From an uncultured Candidatus Peribacteria bacterium (GTDB lineage Bacteria > Patescibacteriota > Gracilibacteria > Peribacterales > Peribacteraceae): DNA of 50,033 nt. The position numbers and the translations under genes are program-made. Of the stretch, positions 1,690 to 46,848 are shown piece after piece. The stretch is taken from assembly GCA_964623835.1 (NCBI GenBank), contig CAZUVN010000001.1, positions 1-50,033 of the forward strand, read 5' to 3'. The first letter of the stretch is position 1; each line of letters begins with the position of its first letter. The notes under the pieces are model-generated. The model was not told where the DNA came from and did no database searches. It saw nothing but the letters and a program-made list of their open reading frames with translations.

Positions 1690-2651
1690 TATTTTCTCTT
1701 CACGCGAATAAAGCCGGAGACAGGCAACACATCAAGTTTCTTCTCTTCCTTCGAGAGAATATCCAGCAGCAAGTTGATACCCATCGCATCGGATGCCATG
1801 TGGCTGCACTGAATCATGTTCACGCCGTGCTTTTTGGCTTCATCAAGCGTTTTCTCTGTGACGTGCATGCTCAAGATCGTGCCAACGCCGGCGCGGCTCT
1901 GGCTTTCCAAGAAGTCCTCGGGTCCGTTGGTGCCGCCGGTGAATTCCGTTGCAACCACTTTACCCGGGCGTGAGCTTCCGCTGCCGTTCACAATGATTGG
2001 CGGATTACCTTTCTTGGCGTAGTAGCGGTATTCCTCCAGTTCCATCAGCGCGTTCACAATTTCATTAAGATCATCGTACTCACGCTTGCAGATCGTCTTC
2101 TCAATAAAGCGCCAGACGAGGTTATCGGTAACGGTGTGGCAGGTGAATGCGGGAATGCCAAGCAGCTCCGCAGCGCGTTCTGTTCGGAAGAGGTTATCTG
2201 CGTGAATGGAGCGCCAAATGCGGTCCATACGTGGGCGCAACTGTGACTCCGAGTGGTTGACGGGAACGCCATGCGTTGCGAGCAAATCAACCTGCAGTGG
2301 CATCACTTTCTCTAAGTCTGCGAGTGCGCGACCTTCTGGGTGGTGAATCATGATCGCATCGATCTTCTCGCCTTTTTCGCGAAGGCGGTCGGCCAGAAGA
2401 ATCTCCGGTGTCTCAATATCGATACCAATCATCAGACGCTTAATTTCTTCGTCACCGGTACCGTTCAAAATGCGGCTATCGGCGTAGGGGTTCCAGGTGC
2501 GTTCCTCATCGAACATCTCTTTTTCTTTGCCTTCGAGTTTCTTGTAACGGTCGGCTTGTTTCTTCAGCATCTTATCGAGCTGCTTTTTGCCGCGGACGTC
2601 GGCTTCCATGCCGATTTCAATAGTGCGTTTGTAGAGGGTTTTGAGCTTCAT
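1689..2651 (-). CDS. NIF3-family (GTP cyclohydrolase 1 type 2 homolog-like) dinuclear metal centre protein
   Basis: 320-aa ORF. Has IDAIMIHHPEG, a CHTVTDN region and C-terminal CSHMASDAMG, typical of the NIF3/YbgI family. Confidence 0.7.
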   Translation of the reverse strand: MKLKTLYKRTIEIGMEADVRGKKQLDKMLKKQADRYKKLEGKEKEMFDEERTWNPYADSRILNGTGDEEIKRLMIGIDIETPEILLADRLREKGEKIDAIMIHHPEGRALADLEKVMPLQVDLLATHGVPVNHSESQLRPRMDRIWRSIHADNLFRTERAAELLGIPAFTCHTVTDNLVWRFIEKTICKREYDDLNEIVNALMELEEYRYYAKKGNPPIIVNGSGSSRPGKVVATEFTGGTNGPEDFLESQSRAGVGTILSMHVTEKTLDEAKKHGVNMIQCSHMASDAMGINLLLDILSKEEKKLDVLPVSGFIRVKRK

Positions 2652-2748
2652 GTGGGGGGTCGGGAAAATGTCTTTGTAAGACTAAAGCGGAATCGTCAAA
2701 CAGTAAAGGAATGTCGTAATACTATTTTGGAGGCTCCGTAGCTCTTTA

Positions 2749-3149
2749 CCCTTTCTTGTCTCCCATACAAGAAAGGGTGGAAAGAAAATCACCGTGCGCC
2801 AAAGCTCCTCCACCCGGCTCTGTATCTCCTCATCGATTCCTCCAAGGCTTCGGAATCGATTCGTCGATAGACGATCAGAGCCTTCCTCAACACCCCCATG
2901 GCGCACGGAAGCCGCCAGGTACGCATCTTATCGAAATCACCTTATTTCCAAGAAGTACTGAGAGATATAGATGACAAGCAGCTTTGAATGATTCAGTGCT
3001 TGAAGCGGTGATTTCCGTCGTTCGTCAGGAGGGTTGAGGGGTTGTTAGGGGGTGAAGGGAACCCCTAAAGGGACTGCGCATCTAGCCTCTCACTACGTTC
3101 GAGAGCTAGCTGCTGGGAGCCGGACAAGGTTCCCTAGCCCCCTGACAAA
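2749..3149 (-). ncRNA. unclassified structured RNA-like repeat, copy A (paralog of 23241-23587)
   Basis: The reverse complement aligns with 23241-23587 and the 119-nt core 2790-2908 is about 95% identical. Nested complementary segments, and a terminal hairpin 2749-2777 whose sequence differs from copy B but still pairs. The repeat itself is certain. The RNA-gene interpretation is inference. Confidence 0.45.
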
Positions 3150-5207
3150 TCAAATCACCACCTTCGCATCAGCAACCATCACGCCGTCATTGCGGACGAG
3201 GACCGGGTTTAAGTCGAGTTCGGTAATAGATGGATTTTCCAGCATCATCCGCGAGACGTTCACGATCACCTGTGCCAGCGCGTCGATGTCAGCCTGCGGT
3301 TTACCGCGCATGCCGAGGAGGAGTTTCCACGATTCCAATTCACTGAGCATCGCGTATGCATCTGCACTGTTTACCGGAGCAATCCGGAAAGCAGAATCTT
3401 TGAAAAGTTCGGTGTAGATACCGCCGAGTCCGGCCATAATCAGCGGACCGAAGGACGGATCGCGTACAGCTCCGACAATAAATTCATTGCCGACGGGCAA
3501 AAATTGCTGAATCAGCACACCCTTCACATGTGATGAATGCGCGTGGCCGTTTTTCAGAATGTCATTGAACGCCGTAATAACATCGGCTGCACTCTGTAGA
3601 TTTGCCCGTACGCCACCGACATCTGTTTTATGAAGAATGTCCGGCGAGCTGATTTTCGCAATCACCGGATACCCGATCTGCTCCGCAATGTGCACTGCTT
3701 CTTCGGCGGTTGTTGCAAGATCTTGCTTGGGGAGAGGGAGGTTGTAGGCGTTGAAGAGTTGTGTGGTTGTTGATTCATCGAGGAGGCCGGATTTGTCGTT
3801 GAGAATGGAGATGGTGTCATGGTGAGCCCGACGAACCATGACATTTGTCGCATGTCGCCCTTCGTCGAGCTCAGGGTGACATGCTAGTGCCTTCATCGCC
3901 CGCACCGCCCTCTCCGGCGTTGCGAATGTGGGAATAGTCGCCACGCGCAGAATCTTTTTTGCTTCACGTACGCTGTCACCACCCATGAATGCTGTGACGA
4001 TGGGCATGAGAGGGGACTCTTTCTTTTTGCGAACGATCAACTCTGCAATCTCATTCACCGGTGTCATCACCTGTGGCGTCAGAATAATCACAAGGCCATC
4101 GATATTCGGATCGTTCTGGCATGCGTCTATTGCCGCTTCATAACGGTCTGCACCTGCATCGCCGATTACATCGATGGGGTTTTGGGTTGATGCGGCTGCA
4201 GGAAGTTTTGGTTTGAGCGTCTCTGTAATAGCGTCAGACAGCGATGGCAAATCAAGCTTTGCCGATTCGGCCGCATCTGTTGCAAGAATGCCTGGCCCAC
4301 CAGCATTGGTGATGATGCCGATTCGATTACTGAGCAGCGGCGGTTCCATGCTCAGCACGCTCAGGAGATCCAAAAATTCTTCGGTTGAACGTGCACGGTG
4401 AATACCAGTCTGCGCGCACAATGCATCAATAGCGGCATCACTTCCTGCAAGGGCACCGGTATGCGATGACGCGGCTTTGCGACCGTGTTCGGAGACGCCT
4501 GCTTTCAGGAGAACAATCGGCTTCTTCGATGCACGTGCAATCTCCATGAATCGGCGTCCGTCTTTGATGCTTTCCAGATAGAAGCCGATCACATGCGTGT
4601 GTGCATCATGCATAAGTAGTTCCAGTGCGTTCGATTCATCGAATGCTGCTTTGTTTCCAATAGAGAGAAATGCGGATAGTCCGAGTCCGAATGATGCAGC
4701 GCCATCCATCAGCGCCACACCAACGGCGCCCGATTGGCTCACGAAGGCGATGTTTCCTGCAGGCGGAAGCTCTTTGGCGAACGATGCGTTCATCTTCGCA
4801 TGTGGTCGAACGACGCCGAGGCAGTTGGGACCGAGGAGGTTGATGGAGTGTTTCTTCGTGATTGCGACTAACTCTTCCTCGAGTTTCTTTCCTTCGTCGG
4901 TATGCACTTCACCGAAACCGGCGCTGATGACCACCACATTCTTGATGTCTTTCTCGCCACACTCGGTTAGTGCCTGGGGAACGGCAGTTGCGGGAATGAC
5001 AATCACCGCGAGTTCGGGAATTTCGGGAATGTCTGCGATCGACGTGTAGACCGTTGCACCCAGAATGTCCCCACCTTTCGGATTCACCGGAAAGATCTTT
5101 CCCGTGTAACCTTGGGTCAGCAGGTTTTTCAGGATGTCATGACCGACCTTTCCCGGGGTTGCCGAGGCGCCTATCACCGCGATGCTCTGGGGGTCCAGAA
5201 TTGCCAT
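3150..5207 (-). CDS. acetate--CoA ligase (ADP-forming), fused alpha/beta (NDP-forming acyl-CoA synthetase)
   Basis: 685-aa ORF. N-terminal CoA-binding/succinyl-CoA-synthetase-like part (IAVIGAS..GKVGH, VSQSGA, SSHTGALAG) is fused to a C-terminal ATP-grasp part. Confidence 0.9.
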   Translation of the reverse strand: MAILDPQSIAVIGASATPGKVGHDILKNLLTQGYTGKIFPVNPKGGDILGATVYTSIADIPEIPELAVIVIPATAVPQALTECGEKDIKNVVVISAGFGEVHTDEGKKLEEELVAITKKHSINLLGPNCLGVVRPHAKMNASFAKELPPAGNIAFVSQSGAVGVALMDGAASFGLGLSAFLSIGNKAAFDESNALELLMHDAHTHVIGFYLESIKDGRRFMEIARASKKPIVLLKAGVSEHGRKAASSHTGALAGSDAAIDALCAQTGIHRARSTEEFLDLLSVLSMEPPLLSNRIGIITNAGGPGILATDAAESAKLDLPSLSDAITETLKPKLPAAASTQNPIDVIGDAGADRYEAAIDACQNDPNIDGLVIILTPQVMTPVNEIAELIVRKKKESPLMPIVTAFMGGDSVREAKKILRVATIPTFATPERAVRAMKALACHPELDEGRHATNVMVRRAHHDTISILNDKSGLLDESTTTQLFNAYNLPLPKQDLATTAEEAVHIAEQIGYPVIAKISSPDILHKTDVGGVRANLQSAADVITAFNDILKNGHAHSSHVKGVLIQQFLPVGNEFIVGAVRDPSFGPLIMAGLGGIYTELFKDSAFRIAPVNSADAYAMLSELESWKLLLGMRGKPQADIDALAQVIVNVSRMMLENPSITELDLNPVLVRNDGVMVADAKVVI

Positions 5208-6016: not shown

Positions 6017-7780
6017 ATGTCTCGTGTTTCTCTCAAAGTCACCGGCGCTCAAGGACAGGGTGTGAACTCTGTCGGAGAGCTGTGCGCGAAGGGACTTAAG
6101 CGCGCTGGTTACTGTGTGTTCGGCTACCGTGAATACAACTCGCTGATCAAAGGTGGACACAGCAGCTATCAGCTCGATGCATCAACGGACAGAGTTCGCA
6201 GCAGCGAAGAACTGGTCGATATTCTCGTTTGCTTCAATCATCACGGATTGGAATTGAACACCAACGATGTGAAAGACGGGGGCATCATTCTGCACCAGTC
6301 GGAGGACTGGGAATTTTCCGATGCCGAGAAAAAGAATTTGAAAAAGCGCGATATCTCTGTCGTCTATCTTCCGACTGATGATTTCTTAAAGCAGCTCAAA
6401 GCGCCGGCAATCATCGGAAACATTCTCATCACCTCCGTTGTCTGGACGCTCATCGATCGTGATCCGGACATGCTGCGCGATATGGTGAAAGAGCAGTTCG
6501 GACACAAAGGCGAGAAGGTTGTTGCGCAGAACTTTGCAGCGTTGGATGTGGCCGAGCAGTGGTCCAACGAGCAGAATATCCGTGCGCTCTGGAAAGGCGC
6601 GTTGCCCAAGCCCGATGCGAAGTGGAAGGATGATCTGCTGCTCACCGGTAGCCAGGCGATGGGGCTTGGCGTGGTGCATGCCGGTGTCCGTTTCTATGCC
6701 GGCTATCCGATGACGCCGTCATCGCCACTGCTGACCTACATCGCCGAGATCCAGAACGAGACCGGCATGGCTATCAAACAAGCGGAGGATGAAATCACCG
6801 CTATTCAAATGGTGAGCGGTGCCATGCATATGGGGACACGCGCACTGACTGGTACATCCGGCGGAGGGTTTGATCTGATGACCGAGACGCTTTCCCTCAA
6901 TGGCATTATCGAAAATCCGTGCGTCGTTGTGCTGGCACAGCGACCGGGCCCTGCAACGGGTCTTCCAACGTGGACTGCGCAGGGCGATTTGATGCTCGCG
7001 ATTCACAGCGGTCACGGCGAGTTTGCTCGGTGTGTGCTCAGCGTCAGCGATAGTGATGATGCATTCAGTTTGATGAATGAGGCGTTCAACATTGCCGAGG
7101 AATATCAGACGCCGGTGATTGTGATGACCGACAAGCACATTGCCGAAGGCATCTATACGCAGAAGCCGTACGACGATGCAGCTTTTAGGGGTCAGCTTTC
7201 AGCCATCAATAGAGGGAAGCTTGTCACAAAATCTGCTGAGCTGAAAAAACTGAAGAGCAGCGATCGCTATGACCCGTCTGCAAAAGATGGTATTTCTCCA
7301 CGATGGTTACCGGGTTCAGAAGCAGCGACCTATGTTGCACAGGGCGATGAACATCGTGCCGATGGCTCGGTAGATGAATCGGCTTCTAATGCAAAGGCGC
7401 AGATGGAGAAGCGACTGAAGAAGCTCGAGGTGATGAAGAGCAATCTGCCGGATGCAGAACTGATTGGTCATCAATCTCCGGAGGTCTTGCTGGTCGGCTG
7501 GGGGTCAACGAAGGGAATCATTGAAGATGTCTTGAAGGATCCTGCACTCAAGCATGCAAAGATTGGATATCTGCACTACACCTATCTCTGGCCACTCAAA
7601 ACTGAGCGCTTCGAGAAGCTTTCTGCCAAAGCAGAAAAGGTGCTATTCATCGAAGGAAATGCCACAGGTCAGTTGCAGATGTTGATGAATCAGCCACAGG
7701 CTGTGCATATTCGTAAGTACGATGGTCGACCGTTCTTCTACAACGAATTGCTGAAAGAGATTTCTTCCCACTGTTCCTGA
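6017..7780 (+). CDS. 2-oxoacid:ferredoxin/flavodoxin oxidoreductase, alpha (fused gamma-alpha) subunit
   Basis: 587-aa ORF. N-terminal gamma-like domain (GAQGQGVNS), then a GYPMTPSS alpha-domain motif. Directly followed by the TPP-binding beta subunit. Confidence 0.9.
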   Translation: MSRVSLKVTGAQGQGVNSVGELCAKGLKRAGYCVFGYREYNSLIKGGHSSYQLDASTDRVRSSEELVDILVCFNHHGLELNTNDVKDGGIILHQSEDWEFSDAEKKNLKKRDISVVYLPTDDFLKQLKAPAIIGNILITSVVWTLIDRDPDMLRDMVKEQFGHKGEKVVAQNFAALDVAEQWSNEQNIRALWKGALPKPDAKWKDDLLLTGSQAMGLGVVHAGVRFYAGYPMTPSSPLLTYIAEIQNETGMAIKQAEDEITAIQMVSGAMHMGTRALTGTSGGGFDLMTETLSLNGIIENPCVVVLAQRPGPATGLPTWTAQGDLMLAIHSGHGEFARCVLSVSDSDDAFSLMNEAFNIAEEYQTPVIVMTDKHIAEGIYTQKPYDDAAFRGQLSAINRGKLVTKSAELKKLKSSDRYDPSAKDGISPRWLPGSEAATYVAQGDEHRADGSVDESASNAKAQMEKRLKKLEVMKSNLPDAELIGHQSPEVLLVGWGSTKGIIEDVLKDPALKHAKIGYLHYTYLWPLKTERFEKLSAKAEKVLFIEGNATGQLQMLMNQPQAVHIRKYDGRPFFYNELLKEISSHCS

Positions 7781-7781
7781 C

Positions 7782-8663
7782 ATGGCCATCAAACTCGACA
7801 TGACCGGCCCGTCGATGAGCGACTACCACAATGAAAATCGTTGCACATGGTGCGATGGTTGCGGTGACTACGGTATCTGGACAGCGGTGAAGCGTGCGCT
7901 CGTCGAAATGAAAATCGAGCCTTGGCAGGTCTTGCTCTGCTACGACGTCGGTTGTCATGGCAACACCAGCGATAAAATTAACGGCTATCGCTTCCATGGC
8001 CTCCATGGTCGTGTGCTGCCGTTTGCTGCCGGTGCAGCTCTCGCAAACCGCAATGTTCCCGTCATGGCCTTTGGTGGCGACGGTGCGAGCTTCAGCGAAG
8101 GTGTCGGTCATCTCGTCCATTCCATCCGCTCCAATTATCCGGTGACGTTTGTTCTCCACAACAACGCAAACTACGGTCTAACGACGGGGCAGGCGAGTAG
8201 TCTGACGTGGCAGGATCAAAAGATGAACACTGCGCCCAATGGCATTCCGGAACACACATTGCCGAGCATGGACTTCGTCTTCAGCTTACAGCCGACGTTT
8301 GTTGCCCGAGGATTTTCCGGCAACATTCCGCAGATGGTCGAGATCTTCAAAGCGGCTATCCAACATCGCGGGTTTGCCTTCGTCGATATTCTTCAGGCAT
8401 GTCCGACCTACAACCACTTTGCAACGCACAACTATCTGCTGGAGAAGTGTTATCAAGTTGAGAACCACGACACATCAGATTTTGAGAAAGCGCGGAAGCT
8501 CGCCGTCGATACATCGGAACGAATCGCGACGGGCATCTTGTATCAGAACGAACATATTCCGGGTTTCGATGAGCGCTTGGTTCCTCGGCAGGGGAAAACG
8601 ACACAGTTGATAGATGAGGTTGTTCCACAGAACGTCAGCGGGCTGATGAAGGCGTTTATCTAG
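7782..8663 (+). CDS. 2-oxoacid:ferredoxin/flavodoxin oxidoreductase, beta (TPP-binding) subunit
   Basis: 293-aa ORF with CxGCGD-type N-terminus (WCDGCGDYG) and GGDGA..NN.NYGLTTGQ TPP-binding motifs. Confidence 0.9.
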   Translation: MAIKLDMTGPSMSDYHNENRCTWCDGCGDYGIWTAVKRALVEMKIEPWQVLLCYDVGCHGNTSDKINGYRFHGLHGRVLPFAAGAALANRNVPVMAFGGDGASFSEGVGHLVHSIRSNYPVTFVLHNNANYGLTTGQASSLTWQDQKMNTAPNGIPEHTLPSMDFVFSLQPTFVARGFSGNIPQMVEIFKAAIQHRGFAFVDILQACPTYNHFATHNYLLEKCYQVENHDTSDFEKARKLAVDTSERIATGILYQNEHIPGFDERLVPRQGKTTQLIDEVVPQNVSGLMKAFI

Positions 8664-22679: not shown

Positions 22680-23240
22680 ATGTACGAAATTACCGAACTG
22701 AAACCCGGCCGCGCAATTCAGCTTGATGGCGAGCCATACGTCGTTGTTGCATCTGTGTTCGGACGCAAAAGCATGGCCAAGGCCAACATGCAGTGCAAGT
22801 TAAAGAACCTCATTACAGGGGCTATTGTTGCGCGTAACTTCCAGGGAAGTGAGAAGATTGAACCGGCAGATGTCGGTTACAAGAAAGTGCAGTTTCTCTA
22901 CGGCGATGGCGAGCGTTTCACATTCATGGATCTGCAGAGCTACGATCAGTTTGAGCTGAGCGCCGATGTGATTGGCGATGCTGCGGGGTACCTTCTCGAA
23001 GGTTCGGAAATTGATGCATTGATGTTTCAGGACAAGCCGATTGGCATTCAGGTGAAGGCAACGGTCGATTTGAAAGTTGTCGAAACGATTCCCGGCGTGA
23101 AGGGCGATACGGCAACCGGCGGTAACAAGCCTGCAAAGCTCGAAACCGGTATTACGGTGAACGTGCCGCTTTTCATTAATGAAGGCGACAAGGTGAAGGT
23201 GAATACGGAGACGGGCCTCTATATGGCTAGAGCAAACTAA
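22680..23240 (+). CDS. efp: translation elongation factor P
   Basis: 186-aa ORF. LKPGRAIQLDGEPYVV and later VPLFINEGDKVKVNTETGLY are EF-P signatures. Confidence 0.95.
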   Translation: MYEITELKPGRAIQLDGEPYVVVASVFGRKSMAKANMQCKLKNLITGAIVARNFQGSEKIEPADVGYKKVQFLYGDGERFTFMDLQSYDQFELSADVIGDAAGYLLEGSEIDALMFQDKPIGIQVKATVDLKVVETIPGVKGDTATGGNKPAKLETGITVNVPLFINEGDKVKVNTETGLYMARAN

Positions 23241-23587
23241 TTTGTCAGGGGACTAGGGAACCTTGTCCGGTTCCCTCCGTCCCCCGACACCCCCGTTACC
23301 CTCCTGACTGACGACGGAAATCACCACTTCAAGCACTGAGTCATTCAAAGCTGCTTAGCAGTATTTACTCATAGTTCTTCTTGAACATATGGTGATTTCG
23401 ATAAGTGAAAATACTGAAGGAATCCCGTGCGCCATGGGGGTGAAGGGGAAGGCTCTGATCGTTTATTGACGAGTCGATTCCGAAGCCTTGGAGGAATCGA
23501 TGAGGAGATACAGAGCCGGGTGGAGGAGCTTTGGCGCACGGTGCACTTTTCTTTCGACTATTTCTTTTGGGCAAGCAAAAGAAATAG
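23241..23587 (+). ncRNA. unclassified structured RNA-like repeat, copy B (paralog of 2749-3149)
   Basis: Starts at the first base after the efp TAA. Outer stem ccgtgcgcca(23425-23434)/tggcgcacgg(23532-23541), nested ggctctg/cagagcc and tcgattcc/ggaatcga, terminal hairpin 23558-23587. Differences from copy A keep pairing as G-U only in this orientation. Confidence 0.45.
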
Positions 23588-23613
23588 TCCCTGTGGAGAA
23601 ATCTTCTCTTAAC

Positions 23614-23636
23614 AAAAAAGACACCTTTCGGTGCCC
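23614..23636 (-). terminator. short intrinsic terminator-like hairpin (minus-strand reading ggcacc-gaaa-ggtgtc + T6)
   Basis: Read directly. Also followed by T-rich sequence on the plus strand, so possibly bidirectional. Confidence 0.4.
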
Positions 23637-24217
23637 TTTGTGTGTTTGTCTTCCTCCGACAGTTATCGACGACTCTTTTGGTCGTTGAGCTGGATTGAAG
23701 GGTGACGGAGACGAGAAGTCTCAACTTTCTGCCGTGCTCTGGTCTCTTGTTTAACCTCGGGACCGTGCCGAGTTCTCCGTGACGGTTCGACGCAGAGTCT
23801 TGCGACTAAGGCGAACACTGGAGAGAAGGGGGTGTGTACGAAGGAGTCTCAGGCCCGTCGTACGGATCTTTGCAGAGCAGAGAGGAGAGTGGCCACTTCT
23901 TAAGTGGTGAAAACCATGATCACGTGCCTATACCCAGAAGTGTGCAAAGTGGTTGCAAAGGTTGGCCGGGAGGAACGCGCGCGATTCTCAACTAATGACC
24001 ACTCCTCTCTCTGTATGTTGTCGGTGATGTGAAGGAAGCGTGTGTGTCTTGGTTGGTGTGTTTCCCTGCGCGTCAGGTTTCATATCATCGTACTCAGCAG
24101 TGTCCGCATCCGCAACTTTCTGCGGTGGAGAGTTATCCACAGTGGTGATATGAATATATTTTGTATACAGGTTTAGTCGTTGCTTTTTGGTCCTAAAAAA
24201 GGGATCCTGCAGCCAAT

Positions 24218-46773: not shown

Positions 46774-46848
46774 GGCCCTATCGTCTAACGGTTAGGACAG
46801 CAGGTTCTCATCCTGCAAATCGGGGTTCGATTCCCCGTGGGGCTGCCA
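46774..46848 (+). tRNA. tRNA-Glu (anticodon CUC), CCA encoded
   Basis: Cloverleaf folded by hand. Acceptor GGCCCTA/TGGGGCT, D stem GTCT/GGAC, anticodon stem GCAGG/CCTGC with loop TTCTCAT, T arm CGGGG-TTCGATT-CCCCG, discriminator G plus CCA. Confidence 0.9.

What the first reader, a model, noticed from the sequence alone, without database searches (positions are those of the whole stretch)
2749..3149. Copy A of a 350-400 nt non-coding-looking element that starts at the first base after a stop codon
The reverse complement of 2749-3149 aligns with 23241-23587. The shared 5' end (tttgtcagggg.ctagggaaccttgtccgg) begins immediately after the TGA of the acetyl-CoA synthetase here, and immediately after the TAA of efp in copy B. 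The 119-nt core (2790-2908 versus 23425-23543) differs at only 6 positions. Copy A carries about 55-60 extra nt inside a segment closed by gtcagg/cctgac pairing, the kind of variable-loop expansion seen in structured RNAs. By eye I cannot match it to RNase P, tmRNA, SRP, 6S or common riboswitch signatures. No transposase or reverse transcriptase gene is nearby.
Basis: partly seen in the sequence, partly recalled or inferred. Interest (0 to 1): 0.6.

Follow-up and report, generated by a model that had tools for sequence, protein, structure and literature searches.

The report
Structured G-rich intergenic repeat of Peribacteraceae
Copy A is one member of an undescribed family of non-coding, elaborately folded repeat elements scattered between the genes of one lineage of tiny-genome (CPR) bacteria, and their orientation follows DNA replication rather than the neighbouring genes.

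Summary
Window 2749-3149 (-) and 23241-23587 (+) are two copies of one element, each starting right after the stop codon of the upstream gene (acyl-CoA synthetase, EF-P). The element is modular: a palindromic hairpin module, a second stem module, a 117-nt multi-helix core, and a pyrimidine/purine 3' hairpin. The 1.14-Mb genome has 4 full cores, one composite copy and contig-end fragments. A covariance model finds the core in 44 of 101 genomes (38 of 84 genera) of the window's family (Candidatus Peribacteraceae by record titles), at 1 to 35 copies each. It finds none in 109 genomes of 32 other families of the class, none in viral contigs, and no Rfam family matches. Pairing is strongly supported: 95% of cells paired, 23 of 31 pairs with changes on both sides, 0 of 500 shuffles as good. 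No transposase, TnpB, reverse transcriptase, RAYT-like protein or CsrA co-occurs with it. Copies favour gene 3' ends. Their G-rich strand lies on the C-rich genome strand (16 of 18, 17 of 22, 71 of 102), whatever the direction of neighbouring genes. Best reading: a new REP/BIME-like structured repeat acting through a single-stranded fold, probably at the DNA level. RNA function is not excluded and expression could not be tested.

The parts
3150..5207 (-). Upstream gene of copy A: ADP-forming acyl-CoA synthetase, 685 aa. Its stop codon (TGA, 3150-3152) abuts the element.
   Evidence: ORF list and Pfam domains. In two congeners without the element the ORF runs 1 or 2 codons further.
3024..3146 (-). 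Copy A, module M1: a long near-palindromic hairpin with a C-rich tail. Three T-rich bases (3147-3149) precede it.
   Evidence: arms 3049-3063 / 3128-3142. The same hairpin recurs in 20 of 101 family genomes, 8 of them without the core.
3064..3121 (-). 58-nt extra block inside the M1 hairpin of copy A. It is absent from copy B.
   Evidence: Global alignment of A and B. The same block is present in G000 contigs C13 and C3.
2927..3023 (-). Copy A, module M2: a stem-closed segment seen only in this genus.
   Evidence: and inverted repeat I7 (2933-2941 / 3007-3015).
2792..2908 (-). Copy A, core fold. P1 2899-2908/2792-2801. G-rich joiner J1/2 2883-2898. P2 2876-2882/2816-2822. P2b 2866-2869/2823-2826. 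Symmetric purine-rich internal loop 2861-2865/2827-2831. P3 2852-2860/2832-2840 with a conserved 11-nt loop 2841-2851. G-rich joiner J2/1 2802-2815.
   Evidence: Consensus fold and pair counts, covariance model hit at 142 bits, and inverted repeats I1 and I4. Coordinates were worked out.
2748..2789 (-). Copy A, 3' module: a pyrimidine strand (2779-2789) followed by a 12-bp pyrimidine/purine hairpin (2748-2778). The pyrimidine strand mirrors the hairpin's 5' arm.
   Evidence: I2, 100% complementary; covarying arms; mirror relation.
22680..23240 (+). Upstream gene of copy B: elongation factor P. Its stop codon TAA is at 23238-23240.
23241..23612 (+). Copy B, whole insert relative to a congener's empty site. 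M1 23244-23308. M2 23309-23405. Core 23425-23541. Pyrimidine strand 23544-23555. 3' hairpin 23556-23589. Tail 23590-23612.
   Evidence: In G004 the efp stop codon is followed directly by the sequence that follows 23612 here. The covariance model scores 139 bits.

Best explanation
Copy A is a long, composite member of an undescribed, lineage-specific family of non-coding, non-autonomous interspersed repeats. Its modules are M1, M2, the core and the 3' hairpin. The conserved heart is a roughly 120-nt multi-helix fold of the G-rich strand, followed by a pyrimidine/purine hairpin. The family has multiplied within genomes. It settles in intergenic DNA, mostly at gene 3' ends; here it clips the last codon or two of the synthetase gene and supplies its stop codon. 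It persists under selection for its single-strand fold. I judge it most likely that the fold matters in single-stranded DNA during replication, as a REP/BIME- or attC-like structured DNA element recognised by an enzyme not yet identified. On this reading the G-rich strand is kept off the strand that is exposed at the fork. Being transcribed into 3' untranslated regions would then be a side effect. Shown: the fold, the copy number, the lineage limit, the absence of known partners, and the strand bias. Inferred: the DNA-level mechanism, mobility as the means of spread, and which strand is leading.
For: Multi-copy and modular. The genome has 4 full cores, a composite copy and contig-end fragments.

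It was found in 0 of 109 genomes of 32 other families. All 80 record titles shown name Peribacteria-type bacteria or, twice, the Patescibacteria group.

The fold is well supported. On a plain MAFFT alignment 95.3% of cells are paired, 23 of 31 pairs change on both sides, 0 of 500 shuffles do as well, and slid controls give 30-44%.

One strand is the folded one. G-T pairs outnumber A-C 31 to 7 and 104 to 30. The G-rich strand folds better in 97 of 98 cores.

Spread within genomes is supported. The nearest relative of a core lies in the same genome for 35 of 48 cores, against 5.2 expected. Congeners lack the element at both window sites.

Structure is kept after copies diverge. Within one genome, 8-12 of 31 pairs show changes on both sides while 93-95% of cells stay paired.

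Placement favours gene ends. There are 35 convergent, 49 tandem and 11 divergent contexts among 95, against 69, 212 and 102 in the genome's own intergenic background.

Orientation follows strand composition. In the element's orientation, local GC skew is negative for 16 of 18 cores, 17 of 22 and 71 of 102. In tandem gene contexts the core agrees with its neighbours only 29 to 20.

No conserved promoter was found, and the consensus scan finds no terminator in or beside either copy.

Loops of the variable hairpin are rarely of the RNA-typical kinds: 4 GNRA and 0 UNCG of 69, against 13 C(GNA)G.
Against: No enzyme that could move or recognise the element was found, so mobility is inferred only from distribution.

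A multi-helix fold with long, highly conserved unpaired purine stretches and a symmetric purine-rich internal loop is more typical of functional RNAs than of known DNA repeats.

If the usual skew rule holds, the folding strand sits on the leading-strand template. That is the strand least exposed as single-stranded DNA. It fits selection against folding better than folding-dependent activity.

Copies within a genome are only about 76% identical, so there is no sign of a recent burst. Some sites are occupied across genera.

Gene calls were crude greedy ORFs. The background was taken from one genome only. The large alignment was fitted to the model. Copies are related, so the p values overstate.
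Confidence: 0.45

Rival explanations
1. The element works as RNA in cis. It is transcribed with the upstream gene. The P1-closed fold plus the 3' hairpin (possibly a U.A-U triple helix) would form a nuclease-resistant or terminator-like 3' end. Such a role would be useful in genomes that appear to lack Rho.
For: Copies favour gene 3' ends and often start within about 5-20 nt of a stop codon. The G-rich strand folds better, and G-U pairs outnumber A-C. The full copy A folds with z -3.15. A Rho RNA-binding domain was found in 0 of 5 genomes. The pyrimidine strand before the 3' hairpin matches the purine arm in parallel register better than reversed in 35 cases, worse in 2 and equally in 57, among 94.
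Against: In tandem contexts orientation agrees with the genes only 29 to 20, and 2 to 3 in G047. Orientation follows strand composition instead. The consensus scan finds no terminator in or beside either copy. A mere stable hairpin would not need the conserved unpaired stretches. One third of copies (46 of 140) have a 3' hairpin with no triplex potential.
Confidence: 0.27
2. It is a family of genes for an independent, trans-acting structured RNA. Candidates are a new ribozyme, a protein-sequestering RNA, or a 6S-like RNA with a closing stem, a large central bubble and a terminal arm.
For: Covariation is strong and the unpaired nucleotides are highly conserved across 38 genera. Structure is preserved in diverged copies within one genome. 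The architecture is a closing stem, two long joiners and a long arm.
Against: The 5' flank shows no conserved promoter. Copy number ranges from 0 to 35 and the element was not found in 57 of 101 family genomes. Single-copy genomes carry it at unrelated loci. The G-rich strand is head-on to the presumed replication direction in about 80% of copies, unusual for a highly expressed RNA. CsrA does not co-occur: 27 of 44 core-positive against 38 of 57 core-negative genomes. No Rfam family matches, including 6S.
Confidence: 0.15
3. It is a remnant or non-autonomous derivative of a known mobile element. Candidates are a MITE of an insertion sequence, an IS200/IS605 end with its guide RNA, an IS110 bridge RNA, a retron RNA, or a prophage end.
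For: It is dispersed and multi-copy, breaks assemblies, and shows presence/absence differences between congeners. The 3 bases before insert B are repeated as its last 3 bases.
Against: TnpB was found in 0 of 5 and IS110 transposase in 0 of 5 high-copy genomes. Y1 transposase was found in 2 of 5 and reverse transcriptase in 2 of 5, and in different genomes. A RAYT-like protein is in 19 of 44 core-positive and 22 of 57 core-negative genomes. A near-complete chromosome with 18 cores has no multi-copy protein family larger than 3 members. The 207 flanking proteins form 168 clusters and none is a recurring mobile gene. Copy A has no terminal inverted repeats. Viral contigs gave 0 hits.
Confidence: 0.08

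Closest known systems
REP/BIME elements of enterobacteria and pseudomonads (REPIN-RAYT systems)
   Same: Both are extragenic, multi-copy and built from palindromic units combined as mosaics. Both sit at gene 3' ends, persist for long periods in a lineage and lack a transposase within the element. Module M1 is a REP-like palindrome.
   Different: The core is a roughly 120-nt multi-helix fold with long conserved unpaired stretches, not a 20-40-nt palindrome. A RAYT-like gene does not co-occur with it. The properties of REP elements are recalled, not tested here.
Modular small repeats such as pneumococcal BOX and Neisseria Correia elements (MITE-like)
   Same: Both are modular, have variable internal blocks, are intergenic and are predicted to fold when transcribed.
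   Different: No terminal inverted repeats were found, no parent insertion sequence, and no sequence similarity to any Rfam entry. Conservation spans at least 38 genera. The properties of the known elements are recalled.
Integron attC sites
   Same: In both, a structure-defined (covarying) single-strand fold lies directly after ORFs. In both, strand orientation relative to replication is thought to limit folding.
   Different: Copies are not in cassette arrays and the flanks are housekeeping genes. The unpaired sequence is highly conserved. Integrase association was not tested. The properties of attC sites are recalled.
IS200/IS605-family ends and their non-autonomous derivatives
   Same: Both involve folding of single-stranded DNA and an orientation bias tied to replication.
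   Different: TnpB was found in 0 of 5 and Y1 transposase in 2 of 5 high-copy genomes. The bias appears opposite in sign to that recalled for these elements.
MALAT1/ENE-type triple-helix 3' ends
   Same: In the larger subfamily a pyrimidine strand, a pyrimidine arm and a purine arm could form a U.A-U / C.G-C triplex at the element's 3' end.
   Different: About a third of copies lack it. The same mirror repeat is equally an H-DNA motif. No evidence shows that an RNA end lies here.

Membership tests
Any Rfam 15 RNA family | Match to the family's covariance model at or near its gathering score | tested here: not met
   The whole window at gathering thresholds gave only a tRNA at 46774-46845. Copy A at E up to 10 gave only chance hairpin hits far below gathering. 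Twelve diverse copies at E up to 0.05 gave nothing on the cores.
MITE | Terminal inverted repeats at the two ends | tested here: not met
   All 10 inverted repeats in 2700-3200 are internal stems. None joins the two termini.
MITE | Parent insertion sequence with matching ends in the same or related genomes | tested here: not met
   No recurring flanking gene was seen. No multi-copy protein family was found in a near-complete chromosome. The Pfam searches found no consistent partner.
MITE | Target-site duplication | tested here: inconclusive
   At the efp site the 3 bases before the insert recur as its last 3 bases. Only one clean empty site was available.
REP/BIME with RAYT | Co-occurrence with a RAYT (Y1 transposase) gene | tested here: not met
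   A RAYT-like protein is in 19 of 44 core-positive and 22 of 57 core-negative genomes. Pfam Y1_Tnp was found in 2 of 5 high-copy genomes.
REP/BIME with RAYT | Short extragenic palindromic units combined in mosaics | tested here: inconclusive
   Module M1 is such a palindrome and occurs before or after cores and alone. The core itself is not a simple palindrome.
IS200/IS605 guide RNA (TnpB omega RNA) or IS110 bridge RNA | Presence of the partner protein in the genome | tested here: not met
   PF07282 was found in 0 of 5 and PF01548 in 0 of 5 high-copy genomes, four of them 95-99% complete. Controls rang in 8 and 6 of 14 genomes.
Retron or other RT-associated RNA | Adjacent reverse transcriptase gene | tested here: not met
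   RVT_1 was found in 2 of 5 high-copy genomes. None appears among 207 flanking proteins.
Riboswitch or cis-regulatory leader | Upstream of, and co-oriented with, a consistent set of genes | tested here: not met
   The downstream gene is co-oriented in 43 and opposed in 60 cases. Flanks fall into 168 clusters. Single-copy genomes carry it at unrelated loci.
CsrA-sequestering RNA | CsrA present wherever the RNA is present | tested here: not met
   CsrA is in 27 of 44 core-positive and 38 of 57 core-negative genomes.
Intrinsic terminator | G+C-rich hairpin directly followed by a T run | tested here: not met
   The consensus scan found 0 sites in 2500-3400. In 23000-23900 it found only one, inside efp.
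Triple-helix 3'-end element (ENE-like) | A pyrimidine strand that matches the purine arm in parallel register, with covariation | tested here: inconclusive
   Among 94 copies with a purine-run arm, the mean parallel run is 6.0, against 5.6 reversed and 3.5 shuffled. Parallel is better in 35 and worse in 2. The 46 other copies show no signal.
Expressed RNA of any kind | A transcript in RNA sequencing | not testable with these tools
   No RNA holder was listed for this stretch.

The most novel reading that the evidence does not exclude
The core is a new class of structured nucleic-acid element with its own biochemistry. One possibility is a catalytic or protein-scaffolding RNA carried in many copies. 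The other is a single-stranded-DNA fold that is copied or recombined at the replication fork by a host enzyme, with no dedicated transposase. The second would be a new way for repeats to spread in minimal genomes.
Probability: 0.25. Interest if true: 0.85.

Novelty: new variant of a known kind. Interest (0 to 1): 0.64.

Why it matters
CPR bacteria have tiny genomes with little room for non-essential DNA. Yet many members of this family carry up to 35 or more copies of an elaborately folded 170-400-nt element, and its pairing is maintained even between diverged copies in one genome. No such element has been described for them: four literature searches found nothing, and the one paper examined (by term search only) shows no mention. 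It gives a ready candidate for a new RNA or DNA structural family with abundant covariation. It offers a marker for assembly breaks in these genomes. Its replication-linked orientation bias can be tested on complete genomes. If the fold is an RNA with an activity, or a DNA substrate of an unknown enzyme, it would open a new mechanism. If it is merely a selfish repeat, it still shows that such repeats thrive in minimal genomes.

Tried and rejected
Known RNA family: rejected. Rfam gave nothing.

Phage or prophage origin: the core pattern had 0 matches in viral contigs.

Expression: no RNA holder was listed, so nothing can be said either way.

Laying DNA contigs of 4 runs: contigs break inside the element. 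A related strain's contigs enter the element from both flanks at the same site. No empty-site joint was seen.

Partner enzymes: TnpB, IS110, Y1 transposase and reverse transcriptase were not consistently present. A RAYT-like protein found through a paralogue screen of one chromosome does not co-occur with the core.

CsrA sponge: no co-occurrence.

A 'home' locus: single-copy genomes carry the core beside unrelated genes. The synthetase site is occupied in at least two other groups of genomes but empty in two congeners.

Small peptide in the 3' module: copies A and B each show an 18-codon frame there. The would-be start is not conserved in other genera and indels shift the frame, so I dropped it without a formal test.

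Own promoter: nothing is conserved upstream beyond about 10 nt, and the consensus scan is empty.

Pseudoknot between the P3 loop and the first joiner, and pairing of the M1 tail with the first joiner (I5): both are possible, but the columns vary too little to test.

Replication origin of G047: skew, the rRNA and ribosomal-protein genes, and the dnaA-like gene disagree by 0.1 Mb or more. I therefore report local skew only.

Supplements of papers were not seen. The one paper examined was queried for terms only.

Some G handles may be the same genomes as named records. I did not resolve this, so the pooled count and the counts may overlap.

Full report
**The observation.** The minus strand of 2749-3149 aligns with the plus strand of 23241-23587. 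The 119-nt core differs at 6 positions, and copy A has a 58-nt extra block inside the first hairpin. The gene upstream of A (3150..5207, minus strand) carries the domains of an ADP-forming acyl-CoA synthetase. The gene upstream of B (22680..23240) is EF-P. Each copy begins at the base after the stop codon and points the same way as that gene.

**Anatomy.** Comparing all copies in the window's genome shows separable modules. The genome is G000, 1.14 Mb in 119 contigs and 88% complete.
- M1 is a long near-palindromic hairpin with a C-rich tail.
- M2 is a stem-closed segment seen only in this genus.
- The core is about 117 nt.
- The 3' module is a pyrimidine strand followed by a hairpin whose arms are a pyrimidine run and a purine run.

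A and B have all four modules. Copies on contigs C57 and C9 have only the core and the 3' module. Contigs C13, C45, C96 and C39 end inside copies. On contig C3, M1 and M2 are followed by about 480 nt that carry a small gene. After that comes a 'mini-core' that keeps P1 and both joiners but lacks the long arm.

**The fold.** I made a plain MAFFT alignment of 28 cores from 12 genomes. RNAalifold gives the following structure:
- a 10-bp closing stem P1;
- a 16-nt G-rich joiner;
- a 7-bp P2;
- an optional variable hairpin;
- a short P2b;
- a symmetric purine-rich internal loop with one central pair;
- a 9-bp P3 capped by a conserved 11-nt loop;
- a 14-nt G-rich joiner back to P1.

Of 31 pairs, 23 show changes on both sides and 95.3% of cells are paired. 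None of 500 column shuffles reaches any of the five measures. Sliding the partners gives only 30-44% pairing. G-T pairs outnumber A-C by 31 to 7, and by 104 to 30 in a model-fitted alignment of 101 distinct cores. The G-rich strand folds more stably than its complement in 97 of 98 cores, though its 44% G content helps. The whole of copy A folds with z -3.15.

**Distribution.** A covariance model of the core hits 44 of 101 genomes and 38 of 84 genera of the window's own family. It hits none of 109 genomes from 32 other families of the class. The 80 titles shown all name Candidatus Peribacteraceae, Peribacteria, Peribacter or Peregrinibacteria, or twice the Patescibacteria group. The same pattern found nothing in viral contigs. 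No Rfam family matches copy A or 12 diverse copies. Four literature searches found no description of such an element in these bacteria. I queried the paper on five complete Peribacteria genomes for terms only; it mentions one direct repeat region and short repeats at the origin.

**Behaviour as a repeat.** The nearest relative of a core lies in the same genome for 35 of 48 cores, against 5.2 expected. Mean identity is 76% within genomes and 66% between them. Within single genomes, 8-12 of 31 pairs show changes on both sides while 93-95% of cells stay paired (on the model-fitted alignment). So structure is maintained after copies diverge.

At the efp site, one congener (G004) has the stop codon followed directly by the sequence that here follows 23612. 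That defines a 372-nt insert whose last three bases repeat the three before it. Other congeners hold a different, a decayed or a full core at the same site.

At the synthetase site, two congeners have no element and their ORF runs one or two codons further. In this genome the element therefore replaced the end of the gene and supplies the stop codon. Yet in other genera a core sits 7-8 nt after the stop codon of the same gene.

**Context.** I took 112 distinct cores with crude greedy ORF calls; 95 of them have a called gene on both sides. Of those 95:
- 35 lie between convergent genes;
- 29 lie in tandem genes in the same direction;
- 20 lie in tandem genes in the opposite direction;
- 11 lie between divergent genes.

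The genome's own intergenic background is 69 convergent, 212 tandem and 102 divergent. The 207 flanking proteins fall into 168 clusters, and none is a recurring mobile gene. Genomes with a single copy carry it beside unrelated housekeeping genes.

**Search for a partner.** I searched five high-copy genomes. TnpB and IS110 transposase were absent from all five. Y1 transposase and reverse transcriptase were each present in two, and in different genomes. A near-complete 1.38-Mb chromosome with 18 cores has no paralogous protein family larger than three members. Its pair of RAYT-like proteins belongs to a family present in 19 of 44 core-positive and 22 of 57 core-negative genomes. CsrA is present in 27 of 44 against 38 of 57. 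I considered CsrA because the element is full of Shine-Dalgarno-like purine runs. No Rho RNA-binding domain was found in the five genomes.

**Orientation.** This was the most informative result.
- In the near-complete chromosome, 16 of 18 cores have negative GC skew in the flanking 50 kb when read in the element's own G-rich direction.
- In 0.93 Mb of a second genus the count is 17 of 22.
- In the pooled short loci it is 71 of 102.
- The first genome has no gene-strand bias, and half of its cores lie between convergent genes.

Orientation therefore follows replication-linked strand composition, not transcription. By the usual rule that the leading strand is G-rich (recalled, not shown here), the folding strand lies on the leading-strand template.

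**Other features.**
- The loops of the variable hairpin are seldom of the RNA-typical kinds: 4 GNRA and 0 UNCG of 69. Thirteen are C(GNA)G triloops, which I recall as very stable DNA mini-hairpins.
- In 94 of 140 copies, the pyrimidine strand before the 3' hairpin is a mirror image of the hairpin's pyrimidine arm. Parallel matching to the purine arm beats the reversed control in 35 copies and loses in 2. This fits an RNA triple helix and an H-DNA motif equally well.
- M1 occurs in 20 of 101 genomes, 8 of them without cores. It can lie before or after a core, and once it has an inverted loop.

**Reading.** The element is a new, lineage-specific, structured interspersed repeat. It resembles REP/BIME and modular MITE-like repeats in life style: it is extragenic, mosaic, sits at 3' ends and has no gene of its own. 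It fails their defining tests (no terminal inverted repeats, no RAYT or parent element), and its conserved fold is far more elaborate.

Strand choice follows replication and not genes. I found no promoter and no RNA-type loops. I therefore put the single-stranded-DNA reading first, at about 0.45. A cis-acting RNA 3'-end structure comes second at about 0.27, and an independent RNA gene third at about 0.15. Expression could not be tested, so these odds are soft.

That it is a real, conserved, structured and undescribed family I hold at above 0.9.

Noticed in passing
window 23613-24217: About 600 nt without a long ORF, conserved in DNA across five congeners. It ends in a canonical hairpin plus T-run terminator on the minus strand, exactly at the 3' border of copy B. 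It has no Rfam, tRNA or tmRNA match, and RNase P RNA lies on another contig. It is a candidate unknown non-coding RNA.
   Followed up: partly
G000 contig C3 about 7735-8550 (-), locus L004:1098-1286 (-) for the ORF: A composite copy carries, between M2 and a mini-core, a small gene with a promoter-like site, a ribosome-binding site and a terminator. The gene encodes a 62-residue Cys-rich peptide. Only one homologue (58% identity, 61 aa) was found among 5.8 billion proteins.
   Followed up: partly
five genomes of the family (G000, G017, G023, G046, G047): No Rho RNA-binding domain was found in any of them, four being 95-99% complete, while the control rang in 9 of 14 known genomes. The family may lack Rho.
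   Followed up: no
G047:C1:1009665-1010687: Three CsrA genes lie in tandem in a 1.4-Mb genome. CsrA is present in 65 of 101 family genomes.
   Followed up: no
G047:C1:50589-51137 and 1341385-1341927; G000:C18:17080-17595: Small (about 180 aa) RAYT-like proteins score only weakly, or not at all, against Pfam Y1_Tnp. They are present in 41 of 101 family genomes and are unrelated to core presence.
   Followed up: yes
G047:C1: The dnaA-like gene lies at 338 kb, far from both extremes of cumulative GC skew (about 0 or 1160 kb, and 490 kb). A core sits 76 nt after it on the opposite strand.
   Followed up: no
locus L045:1501-1759: One core lies 55 nt upstream of a tRNA gene on the same strand.
   Followed up: no
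G000 contig C6 8327-8350: A solitary 3'-module-type hairpin has no core beside it, so this module also occurs alone.
   Followed up: no
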